A stretch of 42,116 nt of DNA, taken from Candidatus Micrarchaeota archaeon. Its GTDB lineage: Archaea > Micrarchaeota > Micrarchaeia > Anstonellales > Bilamarchaeaceae. A model generated the notes under the pieces. The model was not told the DNA's origin and searched no databases. It was given only the letters and a program-made list of their open reading frames with translations. The translations under genes and the position numbers were made by a program. Positions 554 through 41,640 of this stretch are shown one piece after another. The stretch is from contig JAHFFJ010000004.1 in assembly GCA_023248035.1 (NCBI GenBank), positions 12,048 to 54,163 on the forward strand, in the 5' to 3' direction. How positions within the stretch are numbered: the stretch's first letter is position 1; the number at the start of each line of letters is the position of its first letter.

Positions 554-705
554 ATCTTCACCTCAATTCGTGTTAAAAATAGAAATAATGCGGACTTATT
601 AAAAATATATCTCCCGATTAGAATTTATTGTAAACAACATACCAAGAATACTGCCGACTCGAGCAGATGAATTGGCGCAAATCCTTTTTCTTTAACATTA
701 AAATC

Positions 706-790
706 TAGGCGCGAGCGGATGCGGGTTTCAGCCCGCAGATAGCGAGCGCATTTTAGTTTTCCGTGCGAGTCCTCAGGCGAGCGAACGGAA
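706..790 (+). repeat. GC-rich GCGAGC-repeat patch ending in a copy of the intron M module
   Basis: Four GCGAG(C) copies in about 80 nt plus hairpin gcggg-tttcag-cccgc. Positions 763-787, gtgcgagtcctcaggcgagcgaacg, match the M module gtgcgagccgata(a)ggcgagcg(a/t)ac found inside the tRNA introns at 9602-9626, 18722-18745 and 23129-23154. Confidence 0.45.
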
Positions 791-792
791 AA

Positions 793-2331
793 TTATTTTA
801 CAAGTTGATGGGCTTTCTTTATACCCTCCCAACTTTCCCCTTTTATGAGAGCATAAGCAACTTTTTTTATCCCAGCTATTTCAGTCCGTATTTGCTCACC
901 AGTATTCCTATACCGAATAGTAACCGTACCCTTCTCAAGTGTTTCATAATCTATTGTGATCGCTATAGGTATTCCTATTTCATCCGCTCTTGCATATCGC
1001 CTTCCAATACTTCCACTCTCACGATAATCAACGTCCAATCCTACAAGGCGTAATTCACTTACAACTTCTTTTGCTTTATTGTCAAGGCCATCTTTACTCA
1101 TAAGTGGGAAAACAGCGACATGGTAAGGTGCAATAATAGCAGGAAAATCGAACCACTCCCATTCCTTAGCGGTTCCGTGCTTCCAGTTTCCAGCTTCGTC
1201 TTTCTCATCTTTATCTCTAAAACAATGCTCAAGAATACAGAAAAACAGCCTATCCAATCCCATCGCTATCTCAAAAACATGGGGGACTATCTTTCTCCCA
1301 TCAACATGGACGCTAAAGTCCTTTCCGCTTTGTTTTGCATGTTGTGAAAGGTCAAAATCAGTACGGTAAGAATTTCCAATTGTTTCAATTGCACCATATG
1401 AAGTTTCAACTTCCATATCTATGTTCCCTTTGGAATAATGAGGTAATTCGTTCTGGTCAAGCACACGATAATACATCTTACTCGTATCCACACCCGCTCG
1501 CTTATAAAATTCCCATCCGCGAACAAGGTAATATGCCATTATCTCATTAGCAGTAACTTTTTCTTTCACAATCTCTCCACTAGTCATTTCTTTTTTTACC
1601 CCACCAATCATCATGGTCAGGCTTTGAGTAGATAAGCTATCAAAAATTTCATGCTTGTCCTTAAGAGGATCAAAAAAATATTCCAGTTCCATTTGCGTAA
1701 ATTCTCTCATTCTCACAAGGCCTTTTCTTGGTGAAATCTCATTTCTAAAACTTCTGCCCACCTGGCCTACTGCAAGAGGTAGCTTGGTGCCATGGTTCCT
1801 AAAAAGCCTGGGGAATGCTGTAAAAGTTCCCTGCGCAGTTTCCGGCCTTGAATATCCCGGAACCCTCTCCCCTCCGATTTGGGTTGCAAACATAAGGTTG
1901 AATTTGTATGCCTTTCCAAAACTCCCCTGGCATCTTGGGCAAACTATCTTTTGATCCGCTATTATCTGATCTAGTGTTTCGAGTTTGCCATCCCAGCGTC
2001 CACCCTGCTTTTCATAGTGTTTTTCTTCTGCTAGATGGTCTGCCCGGATGCGTGTCTTGCACTTTAAACATTCTACAACCGGATCAGAAAAATTTGCAAC
2101 ATGTCCTGATGCTATTAGTACTGGTTCAGGAGTTATAAGCGAACTTTGAATCTCCAAAAAGCCCTCATTTTTTATGAACATTTCACGCCAGAGATTCTCG
2201 ATCTTATGCTTTATCAAAACCCCTACCGGTCCATAATCGTAAAATCCGGCAATTCCACCATATGGTTCATTGCTCGGAAAGAAAAATGACCTTTTTAACG
2301 CTAGTTCAAATATTCTCTCGTGAAGTTGCAT
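793..2331 (-). CDS. glyS: Glycine--tRNA ligase, archaeal/eukaryal dimeric type
   Basis: 512-aa ORF. N-terminus FFFPSNEPYGGIAGFYDYGPVGVLIKHKIENLWREMFI and class II core (RNEISPRKGLVRMREFTQMELEYF) are typical of alpha2 GlyRS. Confidence 0.93.
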   Translation of the reverse strand: MQLHERIFELALKRSFFFPSNEPYGGIAGFYDYGPVGVLIKHKIENLWREMFIKNEGFLEIQSSLITPEPVLIASGHVANFSDPVVECLKCKTRIRADHLAEEKHYEKQGGRWDGKLETLDQIIADQKIVCPRCQGSFGKAYKFNLMFATQIGGERVPGYSRPETAQGTFTAFPRLFRNHGTKLPLAVGQVGRSFRNEISPRKGLVRMREFTQMELEYFFDPLKDKHEIFDSLSTQSLTMMIGGVKKEMTSGEIVKEKVTANEIMAYYLVRGWEFYKRAGVDTSKMYYRVLDQNELPHYSKGNIDMEVETSYGAIETIGNSYRTDFDLSQHAKQSGKDFSVHVDGRKIVPHVFEIAMGLDRLFFCILEHCFRDKDEKDEAGNWKHGTAKEWEWFDFPAIIAPYHVAVFPLMSKDGLDNKAKEVVSELRLVGLDVDYRESGSIGRRYARADEIGIPIAITIDYETLEKGTVTIRYRNTGEQIRTEIAGIKKVAYALIKGESWEGIKKAHQLVK

Positions 2332-2809: not shown

Positions 2810-2899
2810 ATGAAGCGAACGAGCCTCAAGTAGATCCAGAGATTTTTAGAGTTTGAATTCCCACTATAATCTAGAGTAATTGGGGAAGAGGCAAACAGA

Positions 2900-3943
2900 T
2901 CAACGGACAAAAAAGAACAGCACTGCTATGATAAGGTACATTATCACAAGCTGTGCCCCTTCAAACCAATTACATCGTCCATCGGTTGAAATTTCGTTTA
3001 CTATAAGTACGCTTGCAAAGACTGCGATAACTTCAAAAGGCGTGAAAACCAGATCCATTCCCTTTCCCATTAGTGTACCTGCAATCACAGTAAGGGGTGC
3101 AACAAACATTGCTATCTGGAGGGATGACCCCACAGTGACATTGACACTCAAATCAAGATCGTTTTTAAGTGCGAAAAATACGGCTGCAAGATGCTCAGCT
3201 GCATTACCAACTACTGCTACTATTATTGCACCTATAAACAGTTCAGTAAGTCCAAAATTTTCAGCAACGTGCTCTATCTGACCAACGAAAACTTCGCTGA
3301 TAATTCCTAACAATATTGTAGAAACTACAAGTACGCCTATTGCAAAATTCCTACTCCATTGTGCCTTTTCACCATCTTCTTTTGTTCTAAAAAGATATTG
3401 GTGGGTTTTGAGAGAAAACACCATACTGAGCGTGTAAATCGAGATCATCAAAATTGATACGCAAAGGCTTAGTATGTGCTCATCCTCATTACGATGCTCT
3501 GCCGGCACAAAATGGAACAAACTCGGAATCATTATGCTCATGAAGGCAATTAGGAGCATAGTCGAATTCATACCTGCAAGATGGGTAGAAAATTTTTGCT
3601 CCTTAAATTTCAAACCTCCAAAAAACAGACTAAGTCCAAATACGAACAAGAGATTGCCTATTATACTTCCTGCAATTGAAGCCTTTACTAGTTCTATCAG
3701 GCCTTTATTTATGGCTAGGAGTGCAATTATCAATTCCGCAGCATTTCCAAATGTAGCATTTAGTAAGCCACCAATCTGCCCCCCATAAATTTTTGCAAGT
3801 TCTTCGGTAGCTTCCCCCATCTTTGCTGCTAATGGGAGAATTGCAAGTAGGGAAGATACAAAAATAACCGTGCTATCTGCCCCAACAAAATTTAGGACTA
3901 GGGTAATAGGAATGAAAATTAGCAAAATGTCCATTATTCGCAT
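2900..3943 (-). CDS. Ca2+/H+ antiporter (CaCA/CAX family)
   Basis: 347-aa polytopic ORF with both alpha-repeat signatures, GNAAELIIALLAINKG and GNAAEHLAAVFFALKNDLDLSV. Confidence 0.88.
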   Translation of the reverse strand: MRIMDILLIFIPITLVLNFVGADSTVIFVSSLLAILPLAAKMGEATEELAKIYGGQIGGLLNATFGNAAELIIALLAINKGLIELVKASIAGSIIGNLLFVFGLSLFFGGLKFKEQKFSTHLAGMNSTMLLIAFMSIMIPSLFHFVPAEHRNEDEHILSLCVSILMISIYTLSMVFSLKTHQYLFRTKEDGEKAQWSRNFAIGVLVVSTILLGIISEVFVGQIEHVAENFGLTELFIGAIIVAVVGNAAEHLAAVFFALKNDLDLSVNVTVGSSLQIAMFVAPLTVIAGTLMGKGMDLVFTPFEVIAVFASVLIVNEISTDGRCNWFEGAQLVIMYLIIAVLFFFVR

Positions 3944-9423: not shown

Positions 9424-9544
9424 CCACTTTACAATAAAGTGAAATTTTCTTAAATCCGACCATAAAAAAAGCCATTTTTTCTGTTTTATCTACATAGAAA
9501 TAGTCAATCTAACATTTCAAAATGAAAAATAGCCCCGGGCAGAT

Positions 9545-9760
9545 TCTCGAGCTTTTGGAAAAAGCTCGACCAAAACGGTCTGCTAATTTTTGCTTTTTTC
9601 TGTACGCTCGCCTTATCGGCTCGCACAGAACTGATAACAAAAATGGTTTACTAAAGTTCAGTAATTTTCCGATAAGGAAAATTCAACTGAACAAAAACCA
9701 AAAACCCGAAAAGGGTTTTCAACAGAAAGTTTTGATCAAAACTTTTTCTAAAAGTTTTGT
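9545..9760 (-). other. tRNA-Gln intron 2, inside the T-loop (~216 nt), full-length modular element
   Basis: It separates GGCAGTTCGA from ATCTGCC; the junction is ambiguous within GAA. It contains H1 (9738-9758), H2 (about 9700-9720), H3 (9656-9692), M (9602-9626), ccaaaacggtctgctaat (9570-9587) and H4 (9547-9569). Confidence 0.7.
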
Positions 9761-9803
9761 TCGAACTGCCGTCAAGAGGTCCAGAACCTCCTATCCTTGA
9801 CCA

Positions 9804-9915
9804 AAGTCTGCACTTTTTTAGGAAAAAAGTGCACAAAAAACTGGTTTGTTATCAGTCAAAAACCCGAAGGGGGTTTCAACACCAATTTTTGATCCAACTT
9901 TTTTTGAAAAAGTTG
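9804..9915 (-). other. tRNA-Gln intron 1, inside the D-loop (~112 nt)
   Basis: It separates GTCTAGCC from TGGTCAAGGAT. It contains hairpins ccaac..gttgg (9894-9916) and gcac..gtgc (9810-9832) and an H2 copy (about 9858-9878). Confidence 0.7.
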
Positions 9916-9955
9916 GGCTAGACGACGGGGCTATAACTGAAATTTGTTTGATAAG

Positions 9956-9965
9956 TAATAAAATA
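9956..9965 (-). promoter_or_regulatory. TATA-like box for tRNA-Gln
   Basis: Minus-strand TATTTTATTA lies 24-33 nt upstream of the tRNA 5' end (9932). Confidence 0.45.
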
Positions 9966-10009: not shown

Positions 10010-10135
10010 GTTCAGTAATTTTCCGATAAGGAAAATTCAACTGAACAAAACCAAAAAACGAAACTTATATATAGTGGGAAACTTCTAATAAATGTGTACA
10101 GTTAGTTTTTTGGTTCTTTTTTCCTAAAAAAGAAC
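10010..10135 (-). repeat. Solo (non-tRNA) fragment of the intron element
   Basis: Positions 10010-10046 are a 37/37 identical copy of hairpin H3 (9656-9692; reverse complement at 18665-18701), followed by caaaaccaaaaaa. Positions 10112-10135 are an H-type hairpin, ggttcttttttcctaaaaaagaac. No tRNA exon-like sequence flanks them. Confidence 0.6.
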
Positions 10136-18558: not shown

Positions 18559-18830
18559 GGGGAAATGAGCTAACCTGGTATGCTGTCAGCTTTGGGTCTC
18601 CACCTTTTAGGAAAAGGTGGAGCCAAAACGTGCTGTTTCAAAACCCTTTCGGGTTTTTGGTTTTGTTCAGTTGAATTTTCCTTATCGGAAAATTACTGAA
18701 CTTCACAAACCATTTTTGTAAGTGCGAGCCGATAGGCGAGCGAACGAAACAAAAATTAGCAAGACTGTTTTGGGTACCTTTTAAGGTATCAAAAGAGCTG
18801 GTTGTCTGAGTTCAAATCTCAGTTTCCCCA
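18559..18830 (+). tRNA. tRNA-Pro(UGG) with a 199-nt intron at 37/38
   Basis: Exon 1 is 18559-18596 (GGGGAAATGAGCTAACCTGGTATGCTGTCAGCTTTGGG). Exon 2 is 18796-18830 (AGCTGGTTGTCTGAGTTCAAATCTCAGTTTCCCCA). Features are acceptor GGGGAAA/TTTCCCC, anticodon arm TCAGC-TTTGGGA-GCTGG, T arm CTGAG-TTCAAAT-CTCAG and discriminator A. Confidence 0.88.
18597..18795 (+). other. tRNA-Pro canonical-position intron (199 nt), full-length modular element
   Basis: It contains H1 ctccaccttttaggaaaaggtggag (18598-18622), H2 aaaaccctttcgggtttt, H3 (18665-18701), M (18722-18745), attagcaagactgttttggg (18755-18774) and H4 gtaccttttaaggtat. CAAA (18790-18793) pairs with loop nt 32-35 UUUG, leaving an AG|A bulge at the 3' splice site. 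Confidence 0.8.
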
Positions 18831-18975
18831 TAAAAGGAACCAAGGTTCCTTTTTATCCTCCTTTGAAAAGAACCAATGGTTCTTTTTGAATCTCATGAAA
18901 GAACCTACGGTTCTTTCTATCTCCCTCTTTTTTGAATCAAGGTTTCTTTCTAACTTCCTTTTCTTTGAGTATTTT
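18831..18975. repeat. Tandem array (~4 units, ~33-nt period) of palindromic hairpins
   Basis: The units are aaaaggaaccaaggttcctttt, gaaaagaaccaatggttcttttt, gaaagaacctacggttctttc and a degenerate fourth, separated by the pyrimidine spacers atcctcc, gaatctc, atctccc and aacttcc. The first hairpin plus T5 sits directly 3' of tRNA-Pro (terminator-like). Confidence 0.75.
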
Positions 18976-20247: not shown

Positions 20248-20955
20248 ATGGCAGCAACATCAAGGCCACCTTCAGTTGCTCTACCGCCAGAACAAAGACC
20301 ATCTCCATTTGCTCTGGATCCAGAACAAAGACCAAAACCCAAAGGTACTTATAGTTCTAGATCACCTCAAGTTGAATCTCCTCAATCTATACGCTCTGTT
20401 ACTCCTGCTAATCGATCTGGTGCAATATCCAGAAAGCCTCGATCAGACCAAGAAGAAAAATTATCTCCAGAAGAAAAAACAAGGCAATTGACCCTTATAG
20501 CAAGACTAAAAACAAATGTAGCCGGAATCACATCCGATGATTTTTCAGAATTTATTAGAGCTAGTACTGATTGCGAAGTTGCTTTGGCTTTCACTTCTCT
20601 TTTGGCAGTGTATCTTGATCGGCACGAACCGGAACATATATTTCTTGTTTCTATCTTAGTTGCCTTTTCTGGTTCAGAAGAACTTAGGAGTCATGGCATT
20701 CTTTGTCTAAAAAACATAGCGAAAAATGGCCATAATATTTGTGAATTCTTAGACTCTACTGGCAATTCCAACTCCACAGGCCCTACAAATCCACTTAGAC
20801 TTATTATGGAAGATATAAATCTATCAGGTATTTCCAATATAATTGATATACTTGTGTTGCATGCAAATCTTGGTCATACTCAAAGAGCCCAAGTTTTAGA
20901 TGTTATCGAAGGGAAACCCGATTTTGTTAGACTAAAAACTGCGTTAACTATATAG
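20248..20955 (+). CDS. Hypothetical protein with a Pro/Ser-rich repeat-containing N-terminus
   Basis: 235-aa ORF with the internal DNA/peptide duplication PPEQRPSPFALDPEQRPKPKG. Its stop abuts the 3' end of the convergent tRNA-Thr. Confidence 0.5.
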   Translation: MAATSRPPSVALPPEQRPSPFALDPEQRPKPKGTYSSRSPQVESPQSIRSVTPANRSGAISRKPRSDQEEKLSPEEKTRQLTLIARLKTNVAGITSDDFSEFIRASTDCEVALAFTSLLAVYLDRHEPEHIFLVSILVAFSGSEELRSHGILCLKNIAKNGHNICEFLDSTGNSNSTGPTNPLRLIMEDINLSGISNIIDILVLHANLGHTQRAQVLDVIEGKPDFVRLKTALTI

Positions 20956-20989
20956 CCTCGGGAGGGATTTGAACCCCCGGCCTCCTCCT

Positions 20990-21107
20990 TGCCCGCTTTT
21001 GGTAAAAGCGGGACCAAAACAGTCTTGCTAATTTTCGCTGCGCGAAAATGTAAAACCCGAAAGGGTTTTCAACAGAAAGTTTTGATCCAACTTTTCCTAA
21101 AAGTTGG
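20990..21107 (-). other. tRNA-Thr intron at 37/38 (118 nt), element variant lacking H3
   Basis: It contains H1 ccaac..gttgg (21087-21107), caacagaaagttttgatc, H2 (about 21051-21070), ccaaaacagtcttgctaat (21014-21032) and H4 cccgc..gcggg (20992-21012). Intron nt -6..-3 CGGG pair with loop 32-35 CUCG, leaving a CA|A bulge. Confidence 0.75.
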
Positions 21108-21128
21108 TACGAGAGAGGCGCTCTACCA

Positions 21129-21208
21129 TTTTTCGCGCTTTTTTAGTAAAAAAGCGCACCAAAAAACTAACAATAAGTTTTTGATGCACCTTTTTTCTAA
21201 AAAGGTGC
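21129..21208 (-). other. tRNA-Thr D-loop intron (80 nt), minimal element (H1 - closing stem - H4)
   Basis: It separates GCTCAGT from TGGTAGAGC. The hairpins are gcacc..ggtgc (21186-21208) and gcgc..gcgc (21135-21157), with AUCAAAAAC...GUUUUUUGGU between them. Confidence 0.7.
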
Positions 21209-21245
21209 ACTGAGCTACCGAGGCTTTAATTCAAATTAAATAGTC

Positions 21246-21255: not shown

Positions 21256-21496
21256 GACCTGAGCATTTTCATGAAAGTGTACCCCCGGAGAAAAAATTCA
21301 AATGAACAGGGAAAAAAGGATGATGTTTACTGAATTTTTGACTTGGATAACTGTGGGTGTCAATACGGATGAAGTTTGATGAAACTTTACCATAAGTTTA
21401 TAGGAGGAAAGTTTCGTTTGATGAAACTTTAACTGGAGTCTGTACGAAGTAAAGTTTCAAATGCGCCCGCCGGGATTCGAACCCGGGTCATTAGCT

Positions 21497-21543
21497 CTCA
21501 TCTTTACCCCTAGTTTTGGGCCGCCTTTTCCTAAAAGGCGGAA
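21497..21543 (-). other. tRNA-Gly anticodon-loop intron (~47 nt)
   Basis: It lies between CTTCCA and AGCTAA. It contains the H-type hairpin ccgccttttcctaaaaggcgg (21521-21541) followed by CCCAAAAC. I could not draw a clean 4-bp central helix for a canonical BHB here. Confidence 0.6.
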
Positions 21544-21564
21544 TGGAAGGCTAAGATCCTACCG

Positions 21565-21678
21565 TTTTCCAAGCTTTTAGGTGCGAGCACACCCTGTTAG
21601 GGCGTGTCGCGGTTTCATCAAAACCGATTCGTTATTTTTAACTAATCAGTTTTTGTGAAACTTTTTCCTAAAAAGTTT
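21565..21678 (-). other. tRNA-Gly D-loop intron (~114 nt)
   Basis: It contains hairpin aaac..gttt (21658-21677), CACAAAAAC...GGUUUUGAUG, and a long GC-rich hairpin gtgcgagcacaccctgttagggcgtgtcgc (about 21581-21610) at the M-module position. Confidence 0.6.
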
Positions 21679-21717
21679 GCTAGACTACAGGCGCTTTTTT
21701 CTTTTGTTGTTAAGTTG

Positions 21718-22885: not shown

Positions 22886-22900
22886 CGCCGAGGGCAGGAT

Positions 22901-23006
22901 CCCCAACTTTTAGGGAAAGTTGGATCAAAACAGTCTTGCTAGTTTTAAAAACCCGGAAGGGTTTTTCAACAAACTGTTTTTGTAAAACTTTTTTCCTAAA
23001 AAGTTT
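22901..23006 (-). other. tRNA-Ser T-loop intron (~106 nt), element variant lacking H3/M
   Basis: It contains H1 aaaac..gtttt (about 22984-23007), caacaaactgtttttgt, H2 aaaaacccggaagggttttt (about 22947-22968), tcaaaacagtcttgctagt (22924-22943) and H4 ccaac..gttgg (22903-22923). Confidence 0.7.
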
Positions 23007-23035
23007 TTGAACCTGCAATCCACGAGGGATCGGCT

Positions 23036-23072
23036 CTCTCGTAAAATTTGTTCCGTTTTTCCAACAGATCCG
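23036..23072 (-). other. tRNA-Ser canonical 37/38 intron (37 nt)
   Basis: Loop nt 32-35 CUCG (23078-23075) pair perfectly with intron nt -6..-3 CGAG (23041-23038). The 3' bulge is AG|A. Confidence 0.8.
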
Positions 23073-23096
23073 TTCGAGACCGACGCACTACCGGAA

Positions 23097-23187
23097 TGCA
23101 CTGCTGCCTCCAGTTTCCCGTTTTGTTTCGTTCGCTCTCCTTATCGGTTCGCACGAAACTGAAAACTCGAGACTGAAAACGCAATTA
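23097..23187 (-). other. tRNA-Ser D-arm intron (~91 nt)
   Basis: The junction is ambiguous within a duplicated GCA. It contains hairpin CGCA-TAAT-TGCG, the direct repeat GTTTTCAGT x2, the M module (23129-23154, RNA GTGCGAACCGATAAGGAGAGCGAACG) and AAACAAAA as in the Pro intron. Confidence 0.6.
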
Positions 23188-23200
23188 TGCGACCTCGGCA

Positions 23201-41376: not shown

Positions 41377-41640
41377 TAAAAGGAACCAATGGTTCCTTTT
41401 TATCCTCCTTTTTAAGTGATCATGGTTCTTTTTGAATCTCCTTTGAAAAGGACCAAGGTCCTTTTCTAATCTCCTTTTCTTTGAATGGTTCTGTTCCAAT
41501 CTCCTTTTTATTTGAAATGAAAGAAACCAAGGTTTCTTTTTAACTTCCTTTTGAAAGGAAACTACGTTTCCTTTCTAACCTTCCTCCATTAGAACGGTTC
41601 TTTGCAACTTCCTTTTTCTTTCAATTCCTCCAGATGTTTA
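41377..41640. repeat. Tandem array (~7 units) of palindromic hairpins, sister of 18831-18975
   Basis: The units include aaaaggaaccaatggttcctttt, gaaaaggaccaaggtccttttc, gaaagaaaccaaggtttcttttt and gaaaggaaactacgtttcctttc, plus degenerate ones. The spacers are atcctcc, aatctcc, taatctcc and aacttcc. The first ~32 nt are near-identical to the start of the 18831 array. Confidence 0.75.

What the first reader, a model, noticed from the sequence alone, without database searches (positions are those of the whole stretch)
9530..9932. tRNA-Gln(CUG) split by a 112-nt D-loop intron and a 216-nt intron inside the T-loop
Three minus-strand exon blocks of 17, 43 and 15 nt reassemble into a 75-nt cloverleaf with 7/7 acceptor pairs, GGCAG/CTGCC T stem, TTCGAAT T-loop and CUG anticodon. 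The T-arm halves GGCAGTTCGA (9770-9761) and ATCTGCC (9544-9538) are 216 nt apart. T-loop introns are among the rarest archaeal intron positions, and this one is several-fold longer than the tRNA itself.
Basis: seen in the sequence. Interest (0 to 1): 0.85.

Follow-up and report, generated by a model that had tools for sequence, protein, structure and literature searches.

The report
Archaeal tRNA-Gln gene with two long introns
This is a real glutamine tRNA gene of a tiny DPANN (Micrarchaeota-like) archaeon, cut into three pieces by two unusually long protein-spliced introns (D-loop and T-loop) from a hairpin-ended intron family that has spread through at least five neighbouring tRNA genes; the kind is known, the size and family structure are new.

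Summary
Minus-strand blocks at 9932-9530 join into a tRNA-Gln(CUG) that ARAGORN calls only after splicing. Bulge-helix-bulge (BHB) geometry and three syntenic orthologues move the junctions slightly. Exons are 9932-9918, 9803-9760 and 9543-9530. Introns are 9917-9804 (114 nt, position 15/16) and 9759-9544 (216 nt, position 59/60). The mature tRNA is 73 nt, not 75.

Both junctions have a 4-bp helix flanked by 3-nt bulges. The D-loop junction is identical in two distant relatives, whose introns there are 23 and 67 nt. The T-loop intron is unique to this lineage. The T-stem halves, 216 nt apart, show compensatory changes against the orthologues.

The context is Micrarchaeota-like. In ARMAN-2, 59/60 introns are already known and are cut in vitro by the epsilon2 endonuclease, so the position is not novel.

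The new part is the intron itself. It exceeds the 11-129 nt range given in a 2014 review. It belongs to a structured family with perfect hairpins at both ends. The family also interrupts tRNA-Pro, Thr, Gly and Ser in this window, at 15/16, 37/38 and 59/60. It was not found in relatives or in public contig scans.

Splicing is inferred, not shown.

The parts
9956..9964 (-). A/T-rich TATA-like box (ATTTTATTA) at -32..-24 from the tRNA 5' end; putative archaeal promoter
   Evidence: Read. Similar boxes sit about 28 nt upstream of tRNA-Thr, Gly and Pro. No such box lies 24-34 nt upstream of exons 2 or 3. Inference only.
9918..9932 (-). Exon 1 (15 nt): acceptor 5' strand, U8, C9, D-stem 5' strand GUCU, A14 G15
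   Evidence: Identical in the orthologues L009, L030 and L032.
9804..9917 (-). Intron 1 (114 nt) at D-loop position 15/16, with a relaxed BHB. H = GUCU (9923-9920) / AGAC (9809-9806). Bulges AG|C and UU|U.
   Evidence: The same junction GTCTAG|TGGTCAAGG and H = GTCT/GGAC occur in L030 (23-nt intron) and L032 (67-nt intron, strict hBHBh'). A fold constrained to this BHB costs 1.7 kcal/mol over the MFE.
9894..9916 (-). Intron 1 5'-terminal hairpin HP1 (CCAACUUUUU CAA AAAAAGUUGG), starting at intron nt 2
   Evidence: MFE fold; family alignment A3.
9809..9833 (-). Intron 1 3'-terminal hairpin HP2 (UGCACUUUUUU CCU AAAAAAGUGCA), abutting H3' AGAC
9760..9803 (-). Exon 2 (44 nt): rest of the D-loop, D-stem 3' strand, anticodon arm (CUG), variable loop UGAC, T-stem 5' strand GGCAG, T-loop UUCGAA
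9544..9759 (-). Intron 2 (216 nt) at T-loop position 59/60, with an hBH motif. H = UUCG (9765-9762) / CGAG (9549-9546). Bulges AA|C and AA|U. h = the 5-bp T stem.
   Evidence: Background frequency of a 4/4 partner is 0.028. The constrained fold costs 2.9 kcal/mol over the MFE. 83% identical over 188 nt to the 37/38 intron of tRNA-Pro. Absent from all three orthologues.
9737..9759 (-). Intron 2 HP1 (CAAAACUUUU AGA AAAAGUUUUG)
9547..9569 (-). Intron 2 HP2 (UCGAGCUUUU UCC AAAAGCUCGA); its last 2 bp overlap H3' CGAG
9656..9692 (-). Internal 37-nt perfect hairpin module (GTTCAGTAATTTTCCGATAAGGAAAATTCAACTGAAC). It is absent from the shorter family members and repeated exactly at 10010-10046 and 18665-18701.
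9601..9627 (-). Internal GCGAGC...GCGAGC module (stem with tandem G-A pairs), also in the Pro intron, in the first Ser intron and at 763-804
   Evidence: (D13). The structure is read by eye and not tested.
9530..9543 (-). Exon 3 (14 nt): U60, T-stem 3' strand CUGCC, acceptor 3' strand CGGGGCU, discriminator A73. No encoded CCA.
9525..9529 (-). T5 run directly after the discriminator base; putative archaeal terminator
   Evidence: Read; inference.

Best explanation
The locus is the functional, probably single-copy, tRNA-Gln(CUG) gene of a Micrarchaeota-related DPANN archaeon.

Proposed mechanism (inferred):
- One roughly 400-nt precursor is transcribed from a TATA-like box about 28 nt upstream.
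- In the precursor, the D-stem 5' strand GUCU pairs with the last nucleotides of intron 1 (AGAC). T-loop UUCG pairs with the end of intron 2 (CGAG).
- Each pairing forms the 4-bp helix of a bulge-helix-bulge motif, with both cut sites after the second nucleotide of a 3-nt bulge.
- The archaeal splicing endonuclease cuts both motifs. In this lineage it is expected to be a broad-specificity type such as epsilon2.
- The RtcB-type ligase joins the three exons into a 73-nt tRNA and probably circularises the introns. CCA is added afterwards.

Shown here: the exons, the BHB geometry, conservation of the D-loop junction in relatives, compensatory evolution across the T stem, and the intron family. Inferred: transcription as one RNA, the enzyme, and actual splicing.

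Both introns belong to one lineage-specific structured family. Its layout is a terminal hairpin, GAUCAAAAC, a GUUGAAAACCC/GGGUUUU hairpin, optional inserts, AAAAUUAGCAAGACUGUUUUGGUC, and a terminal hairpin. The family has spread to several tRNA genes and positions. The D-loop site is an old intron site. The T-loop intron is a recent gain.

The 5' hairpin starts at intron nt 1-2, and the 3' hairpin abuts or overlaps the 3' strand of the H helix. I propose that they replace the outer h' helix and keep the long intron from misfolding with the tRNA body.
For: Gene identity:
- The spliced sequence is called tRNA-Gln(ctg).
- It lies in conserved synteny (AlaRS, GPI, a 134-aa ORF, the tRNA, radical SAM, HisRS) with a Micrarchaeota MAG whose tRNA-Gln(CUG) sits at the same place.
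- In the four-orthologue alignment 84/84 stem cells are paired. Five pairs carry compensatory changes, three of them in the T stem that the 216-nt intron splits.

Splice motifs:
- The BHB is H 4/4 at both junctions. At the T-loop, h is the 5-bp T stem.
- The D-loop junction and its H helix are conserved in L030 and L032 although their intron interiors are unrelated and of other lengths.
- BHB-constrained folds cost only 1.7-4.6 kcal/mol over the MFE.
- The precursor folds far better than shuffles, z = -9.1.

Intron family:
- The same family sits at 37/38 in tRNA-Pro. There ARAGORN -i independently calls i(39,199), and the splice product equals the uninterrupted orthologue in L009 at the junction.
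- It also sits at 37/38 in tRNA-Thr and at 59/60 in tRNA-Ser with a strict hBHBh'.
- Six introns with 4/4 H helices have a joint background of about 5e-8.
- The H helices and the central helix use G-U pairs that only work on the tRNA-sense strand.

Other:
- Exon GC is 0.59 against 0.35 for the introns.
- The locus is identical in a second assembly.
- Precedent: ARMAN-2 59/60 hBH introns were cleaved in vitro by epsilon2 EndA (PMC3239211).
Against: - There are no RNA data, so splicing is inferred.
- The endonuclease gene is not in the window, and the rest of the 322-kb contig could not be read. The enzyme type is therefore unknown.
- Neither Gln intron has a canonical h' helix (h' = 0-1 bp), so a relaxed-specificity enzyme is required.
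- The h helix at the D-loop junction is only 3 bp, two of them G-U.
- The introns contain eight T5-T6 runs. Oligo-T is the archaeal termination signal and should reduce full-length precursor.
- In intron 2 the H helix competes with the last 2 bp of HP2.
- A second, uninterrupted tRNA-Gln(CUG) elsewhere in the genome cannot be excluded.
Confidence: 0.85

Rival explanations
1. The locus is a dead tRNA-Gln gene. Two MITE-like palindromic elements inserted into the D-loop and T-loop, the pieces are never rejoined, and the cell uses another tRNA-Gln copy.
For: - The introns look like mobile DNA. There are multiple similar copies.
- The terminal hairpins are strictly Watson-Crick palindromes with no G-U pairs. 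HP2 cores are the reverse complement of HP1 cores, as in terminal inverted repeats.
- One orphan copy lies outside any tRNA, at 10010-10135.
- The introns contain many T5-T6 runs.
Against: - The exons are intact and 93% identical to the orthologues. All stems are paired, and there are lineage-specific compensatory changes in the split T stem.
- Each insertion carries a 3' end complementary to its own exon, in exact BHB register.
- The D-loop junction is shared with relatives.
- All five tRNA genes in 42 kb carry such elements and no uninterrupted tRNA is present. That is implausible for pseudogenes in a small genome.
- There is no consistent target-site duplication.
Confidence: 0.07
2. It is a split (tri-split) tRNA. 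The three exons are transcribed separately, each piece ends at the oligo-T runs, and the pieces are joined in trans at the BHB motifs, as in Nanoarchaeum and Caldivirga.
For: - T5-T6 runs follow exon 1 and exon 2 within about 10-25 nt. These could terminate transcription.
- DPANN archaea are the home of split tRNAs (PMC4033280).
- The BHB geometry would serve trans-splicing equally well.
Against: - The exons are collinear, on one strand, within 403 nt.
- No TATA-like box lies 24-34 nt upstream of exon 2 or exon 3 (read).
- Known split tRNAs use long G+C-rich complementary leader/trailer helices. Here the helices are local hairpins.
- The relatives' 23-nt and 67-nt introns at the same D-loop site can only be cis-spliced.
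Confidence: 0.05
3. The intervening sequences are self-splicing (group I or II) introns, or the whole pattern is a chance or assembly artefact.
For: Group I introns do occur in tRNA genes and in some archaea (PMC6125680, listed). The region is A/T-rich and repetitive, which can mislead assemblers.
Against: - No Rfam family matches, even at E <= 10, apart from noise.
- At 114 and 216 nt the introns are too short for a ribozyme core.
- They hold no ORF with a Pfam match.
- An independent assembly is 100% identical.
- The statistics exclude chance.
Confidence: 0.01

Closest known systems
Non-canonical BHB introns of Candidatus Micrarchaeum acidiphilum ARMAN-2 tRNAs: tRNA-Cys(GCA) 59/60, and tRNA-Pro(GGG) 53/54 + 59/60 (Fujishima et al. 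2011, PMC3239211)
   Same: Related lineage: the best protein hits are Micrarchaeota at 42-47% identity. Same T-loop position (59/60). Same relaxed hBH motif, with the T stem as the outer helix. Several introns per tRNA. In ARMAN-2 a large share of tRNA genes is interrupted.
   Different: The ARMAN-2 59/60 intron that was tested is 13 nt; this one is 216 nt and highly structured. Here the introns form one sequence family with terminal hairpins. No enzyme or cleavage data exist for this organism.
Multiple-intron tRNAs and large-scale intron transposition in Thermoproteales (Sugahara 2008; Fujishima 2010; as summarised in PMC4090602 and PMC4033280)
   Same: [quoted passage not shown] There are up to three introns per gene. 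BHB motifs are adapted to each site.
   Different: A different phylum. Those introns are mostly 12-25 nt; these are 100-216 nt. The nested modular build, the perfect terminal hairpins, and modules that also occur outside tRNA genes are not described there, as far as the papers read here go.
Split and tri-split tRNA genes (Nanoarchaeum equitans, Caldivirga maquilingensis)
   Same: tRNA pieces are joined at BHB motifs at D-arm or T-arm positions, in a DPANN or archaeal context.
   Different: Here the pieces are adjacent, collinear and most likely co-transcribed. There are no complementary G+C-rich leaders.
Long tRNA-Trp intron carrying a box C/D sRNA (Haloferax and other Euryarchaeota; cited in PMC4090602)
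   Same: A tRNA intron much longer than the median that carries a structured RNA.
   Different: Neither Gln intron has a RUGAUGA C box, and no snoRNA family matches meaningfully. The position is 15/16 or 59/60, not 37/38.
MITEs / palindrome-ended miniature mobile elements
   Same: Multiple short non-coding copies. The ends are inverted repeats of each other and can form hairpins. Members form an internal deletion series. One orphan copy lies outside a gene.
   Different: There is no consistent target-site duplication and no common target sequence. No transposase is recognisable in the window. Every copy in a tRNA sits in exact BHB register.

Membership tests
Archaeal endonuclease-dependent (BHB) tRNA intron | Both cut sites lie in 3-nt bulges separated by a 4-bp helix (H) | tested here: met
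   T-loop: H = UUCG/CGAG, bulges AA|C and AA|U. D-loop: H = GUCU/AGAC, bulges AG|C and UU|U. Background frequencies are 0.028 and 0.024.
Archaeal endonuclease-dependent (BHB) tRNA intron | Outer helices h and h' flank the bulges (strict hBHBh') | tested here: not met
   h is 5 bp (T-loop) and 3 bp (D-loop), but h' is 1 and 0 bp. These are therefore relaxed hBH motifs, with a terminal hairpin where h' would be. Relaxed motifs are accepted members of the family where the enzyme is (alpha-beta)2 or epsilon2 (PMC3239211).
Archaeal endonuclease-dependent (BHB) tRNA intron | Removal restores a canonical cloverleaf that matches orthologues | tested here: met
   ARAGORN; 93% mean column identity; 84/84 paired cells.
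Archaeal endonuclease-dependent (BHB) tRNA intron | The host encodes a splicing endonuclease able to cut relaxed motifs, plus an RtcB ligase | not testable with these tools
   Neither gene is in the window. The DNA of the 322-kb contig could not be fetched.
Archaeal endonuclease-dependent (BHB) tRNA intron | Excision observed (RNA-seq junction reads or in vitro cleavage) | not testable with these tools
   No expression data are available.
tRNA-Gln(CUG), archaeal | CUG anticodon in a 7-nt loop, A1-U72, A73, and orthology by synteny | tested here: met
   That A1-U72/A73 are typical of archaeal tRNA-Gln is from my own knowledge.
Split (trans-spliced) tRNA | Pieces at separate loci with their own promoters and long complementary leader/trailer | tested here: not met
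   The exons are collinear within 403 nt. No TATA-like box precedes exons 2 or 3. The helices are local hairpins.
Group I / group II self-splicing intron | Ribozyme core recognisable by a covariance model | tested here: not met
   There is no Rfam hit at gathering score, and only noise at E <= 10.
Box C/D sRNA-bearing intron | C box RUGAUGA and D box CUGA in K-turn register | tested here: not met
   Neither intron has RUGAUGA or UGAUGA.
MITE-like mobile element | Terminal inverted repeats, target-site duplication, many copies | tested here: inconclusive
   There are at least 8 copies, and the HP1/HP2 cores are reverse complements of each other. Only one intron has a possible TSD (GAA), and no transposase was seen.

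The most novel reading that the evidence does not exclude
The hairpin-ended elements may be a previously undescribed class of mobile DNA, not just long introns. On this reading they are a MITE-like family with palindromic terminal inverted repeats (core CTTTT-AGG-AAAAG / CTTTT-CCT-AAAAG). They survive inside essential tRNA genes because their ends reconstitute a bulge-helix-bulge site, so the host splicing endonuclease removes them from the RNA. They would be archaeal 'introners'. That would give a concrete DNA-level mechanism for the long-unexplained transposition of archaeal tRNA introns, with the terminal hairpins serving both transposition and splicing. The facts that fit are the strict absence of G-U pairs in 14 hairpins, the orphan copy outside a tRNA, the replacement of an older short intron at the conserved D-loop site, and the modular inserts.
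Probability: 0.2. Interest if true: 0.75.

Novelty: new variant of a known kind. Interest (0 to 1): 0.5.

Why it matters
Non-canonical and multiple tRNA introns are known in Thermoproteales, Asgard archaea and ARMAN-2, so the gene architecture is not new.

What this locus adds is a clean, recent case of intron gain. The same roughly 100-216-nt structured element sits at three different tRNA positions, in five genes within 42 kb. Relatives have either no intron or an unrelated short one at the same sites.

- **Origin and spread.** Such a young, recognisable family is good material for asking how archaeal tRNA introns arise and move. The reviews read here still call that mechanism unknown.
- **Enzyme tolerance.** It also tests how much intron the splicing endonuclease can handle: about three times the tRNA length, with hairpins in place of the outer helix.
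- **Annotation.** Standard tRNA finders miss four of the five genes, which affects tRNA-complement and completeness estimates for DPANN genomes.

Tried and rejected
- **Public contig scans.** Exact-pattern scans with the conserved intron module AYTAGCAAGACTGTTTTGR returned only chance hits: GTDB genome contigs (7 hits, bacteria and unrelated) and JGI metagenome contigs (17 hits, no flanking similarity).
- **Rfam.** Nothing at gathering score, and nothing meaningful at permissive E-values.
- **Unrestricted BHB scan.** It gives hundreds of loose hits in this A/T-rich sequence. It was useless until restricted to junction neighbourhoods and 4/4 helices.
- **MAFFT + RNAalifold on whole introns.** It recovered only HP2 and the CCC/GGG hairpin, because HP1 was misaligned. 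The hairpins were realigned separately.
- **Endonuclease and transposase genes.** I looked for both in the window and found none.
- **Own 322-kb contig.** Its DNA was not retrievable.
- **Hypotheses rejected.** Box C/D sRNA in the introns. An IS200/IS605-type target rule, because the 5' flanks share no tetranucleotide. A K-turn reading of the GCGAGC module, because it has no 3-nt bulge (by eye).
- **Unresolved junctions.** Strict BHB junctions could not be assigned for the first introns of tRNA-Thr, Gly and Ser.

Full report
**1. Observation**

Joined as written, they give a 75-nt sequence that ARAGORN calls tRNA-Gln(ctg). ARAGORN finds no tRNA in the unspliced 42-kb window, and Rfam finds no family at gathering score. 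An independent assembly from a second ENA sample (L008) is 100% identical over 3084 nt that include the locus, so this is not an assembly artefact.

**2. Exact junctions**

I scored candidate cut pairs for the archaeal bulge-helix-bulge (BHB) geometry. That geometry is a 4-bp helix H between the exon nucleotides -6..-3 and the intron nucleotides n-5..n-2, with both cuts after the second base of a 3-nt bulge.

*T-loop.* The only solution with an outer helix cuts after 9760 and after 9544.
- H = UUCG/CGAG.
- Bulges are AA|C and AA|U.
- The outer helix is the 5-bp T stem.
- The intron is 9759-9544 (216 nt, position 59/60).

*D-loop.* The only 4/4 solution cuts after 9918 and after 9804.
- H = GUCU/AGAC, where GUCU is the D-stem 5' strand.
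- Bulges are AG|C and UU|U.
- The intron is 9917-9804 (114 nt, position 15/16).
- The product is a 73-nt tRNA with D-loop AGUGGUCAA.

ARAGORN accepts both the 73-nt and the 75-nt versions. The orthologues decide for 73 (section 3).

The chance that a random window 4-mer pairs 4/4 with these exon strands is 0.024 and 0.028. Forcing both BHB motifs costs 4.6 kcal/mol relative to the MFE of -152.8 kcal/mol. The precursor folds at z = -9.1 against shuffles.

**3. Organism and orthologues**

The window encodes archaeal housekeeping genes: AlaRS, HisRS, ProRS-like, cupin-type GPI, Nop5, RFC, L10e and archaeal PEP carboxylase.

The neighbouring radical-SAM protein has its best non-self hits, at 42-47% identity, in 'Candidatus Micrarchaeota archaeon' MAGs. 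One of these MAGs (L009, GCA_040758595.1) shares the gene order AlaRS, GPI, a 135-aa ORF, a gap, radical SAM, HisRS, KaiC, MJ0538, Nop5. In that gap lies a tRNA-Gln(CUG). Its D-loop (AGCGGUCAA, 9 nt) and T-loop are uninterrupted, but it has a roughly 72-nt intron near 37/38.

Two further relatives carry the gene with a D-loop intron of 23 nt (L030) and 67 nt (L032). The junction is exactly the same, GTCTAG|TGGTCAAGG, with H = GUCU/GGAC. L032 has a strict hBHBh' with h' = 10 bp. None of the relatives has a T-loop intron.

The four spliced sequences align without gaps at 93% mean column identity. On the cloverleaf, 84 of 84 cells are paired. Five pairs have changes on both sides, three of them in the T stem. 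The window's G49:C65 and A52:U62 are lineage-specific. So the two T-stem halves, 216 nt apart in the DNA, are evolving as a pair.

**4. The introns are one family and are not confined to this gene**

Repeat searches led to four more interrupted tRNA genes in the window.

| tRNA | Window coordinates | Introns |
|---|---|---|
| Pro(UGG) | 18559-18830 (+) | one, at 37/38 |
| Thr(CGU) | 20954-21224 (-) | two |
| Gly(UCC) | 21462-21694 (-) | two |
| Ser(CGA) | 22886-23199 (-) | three, one at 59/60 |

Each is called a tRNA once spliced. ARAGORN -i independently calls tRNA-Pro with i(39,199), exactly the BHB prediction.

BHB results for these genes:
- Pro: H = UUUG/CAAA, h = 6.
- Thr second intron, at 37/38: H = CUCG/CGGG, h = 5.
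- Ser second intron, at 37/38: H = CUCG/CGAG, h = 6.
- Ser third intron, at 59/60: H = UUCA/UGGG, h = 5, h' = 6.

The joint background frequency for six 4/4 H helices is about 7e-11, or about 5e-8 if three registers are allowed for each.

The uninterrupted tRNA-Pro(UGG) of L009 matches the window's spliced Pro at the junction TTTGGG|AGCTGG. That validates the junction rule for this intron family.

Six introns align as a nested deletion series. The order is HP1, GAUCAAAAC, GUUGAAAACCC-UUCG-GGGUUUU, optional inserts, AAAAUUAGCAAGACUGUUUUGGUC, HP2. The Gln T-loop intron and the Pro 37/38 intron are 83% identical over 188 nt.

**5. Terminal hairpins**

Hairpins of the form N3-7 T4-6 / loop / A4-6 N3-7 occur 13 times in the window, against 0.16 expected. 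Twelve are inside the five tRNA loci. There are none in about 50 kb of relatives' DNA.

In an alignment of 14 such hairpins, 97.8% of 138 cells pair. Thirty-nine cells have changes on both sides, and 0/500 shuffles reach this. One caveat: the hairpins were picked as hairpins.

HP1 begins at intron nt 1-2, directly after the 5' bulge. HP2 ends at, or overlaps, the H 3' strand. I infer that they stand in for the missing h' helix and insulate the long intron from the tRNA body.

When the BHB is enforced, ViennaRNA instead pairs the two termini with each other. However, the variable outer stems match only within each hairpin, not between HP1 and HP2. The local hairpins are therefore the conserved feature.

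Two oddities remain.
- No hairpin pair is G-U.
- HP1 loops are AGG/AGA while HP2 loops are CCU-like, so the ends are inverted repeats of each other.

Both are what a DNA-level mobile element would show. However, there is no consistent target duplication, no common target sequence, and no transposase in the window.

**6. What is known**

ARMAN-2 (Micrarchaeota) has 56% of its tRNA genes interrupted. These include 59/60 introns in tRNA-Cys and tRNA-Pro. Its epsilon2 endonuclease cut a 13-nt 59/60 hBH intron in vitro (PMC3239211). In Thermoproteales, similar introns in different tRNAs were read as intron transposition, by an unknown mechanism (PMC4090602, PMC4033280). Some Asgard genomes have introns in over 90% of their tRNA genes (PMC11291895).

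So the gene type and the T-loop position are known. Reviews give archaeal tRNA intron lengths as 11-129 nt, or 'less than 100 nt'. The 216-nt and 199-nt introns here exceed that. I found no description of a hairpin-ended family. The family module was absent from GTDB representative genomes and JGI metagenomes by exact-pattern scan.

**7. Evolutionary reading (inference)**

The 15/16 D-loop site is old, because it is shared by lineages only about 45% identical in a neighbouring protein. In this lineage its interior has been replaced or invaded by the family element. The 59/60 intron of tRNA-Gln and the 37/38 intron of tRNA-Pro are gains specific to this lineage.

**8. Weak points**

- There are no RNA data.
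- The endonuclease type is unknown.
- The Gln motifs are relaxed BHB.
- The introns hold eight T5-T6 runs, although oligo-T terminates archaeal transcription.
- A second tRNA-Gln copy cannot be excluded.

The rivals are weakly supported. They are a pseudogene hit by MITEs, a separately transcribed split tRNA, a self-splicing intron, and an artefact. Their weights are in the rival section.

**9. Verdict**

This is a real, most likely functional, three-exon tRNA-Gln(CUG) gene with endonuclease-type introns at 15/16 and 59/60. It is a new variant of a known kind. What makes it notable is the intron length and the lineage-specific hairpin-ended intron family.

Noticed in passing
window 18559-18830 (+); intron 18597-18795: tRNA-Pro(UGG) with a 199-nt intron at 37/38 from the same family (H = UUUG/CAAA, h = 6). 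ARAGORN -i calls it i(39,199). The syntenic orthologue in L009 (12814-12886) is uninterrupted and matches at the junction.
   Followed up: yes
window 20954-21224 (-); second intron 20990-21107: tRNA-Thr(CGU) with a roughly 80-nt D-loop intron (no strict BHB found, junction ambiguous) and a 118-nt intron at 37/38. Both are from the same family. ARAGORN -i miscalls the locus as tRNA-Ala with a 205-nt intron.
   Followed up: partly
window 21462-21694 (-): tRNA-Gly(UCC) with a roughly 110-nt D-loop intron and a 47-nt intron at 37/38. The D-loop intron has an HP1 hairpin plus UGAUGA and CUGA motifs, and its junction is unresolved. The 37/38 intron has H 3/4.
   Followed up: partly
window 22886-23199 (-); T-loop intron 22900-23005: tRNA-Ser(CGA) with three introns. 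The first follows position 7-9 and its junction is unresolved. The second is a 37-nt canonical BHB intron at 37/38. The third is a 106-nt family intron at 59/60 with a strict hBHBh'. It is a second T-loop intron at the same position as in tRNA-Gln.
   Followed up: partly
window 10010-10135 (-): An orphan intron-like element 80-200 nt upstream of tRNA-Gln on the same strand. It has an HP1-type hairpin (10113-10135, loop AGG) followed by CAAAAAAC, plus an exact copy of the 37-nt GTTCAG hairpin module (10010-10046). No exons were recognised around it.
   Followed up: partly
window 700-804 (+), 9601-9627, 18722-18763, about 23140-23165: A repeated module GYGCGAG-(variable hairpin)-GCGAGCGNAC. It can form a stem with tandem G-A pairs. 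It occurs inside three introns and twice in an intergenic spacer near 700-800. Its function is unknown.
   Followed up: no
window 18832-18962 and 41379-41616: Arrays with a period of about 33 nt. Each unit is a short hairpin (AAAGGAACC-NN-GGTTCCTTTT) followed by ATCCTCC/ATCTCC. One array lies right after tRNA-Pro and one after a KaiC-like gene. They may be terminator arrays or another small repeat family.
   Followed up: no
window 21374-21452: Two tandem 42-nt units directly downstream of tRNA-Gly. Each is an 8-bp stem (GAAACTTT/AAAGTTTC) with a roughly 20-nt loop, followed by ATCAAAC. The stem and tail resemble the intron family's HP1 + GATCAAAAC.
   Followed up: no
window 9530-9932 (introns); alignment A3: The 14 terminal hairpins contain no G-U pair, and HP1 loops (AGG/AGA) are complementary to HP2 loops (CCU-like). 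This fits either DNA-level terminal inverted repeats or a loop-loop contact. The two Gln introns also contain eight T5-T6 runs, although oligo-T is the archaeal terminator.
   Followed up: partly
L009 about 2880-2950 (-): About 170 nt downstream of the Micrarchaeota MAG's tRNA-Gln lies a partial copy of its 3' end (GGGCTTCGATCCGCTCGGGCTA). It is preceded by a GGCC-TTTTT-GGCC hairpin. It may be a decayed duplicate or another split piece.
   Followed up: no
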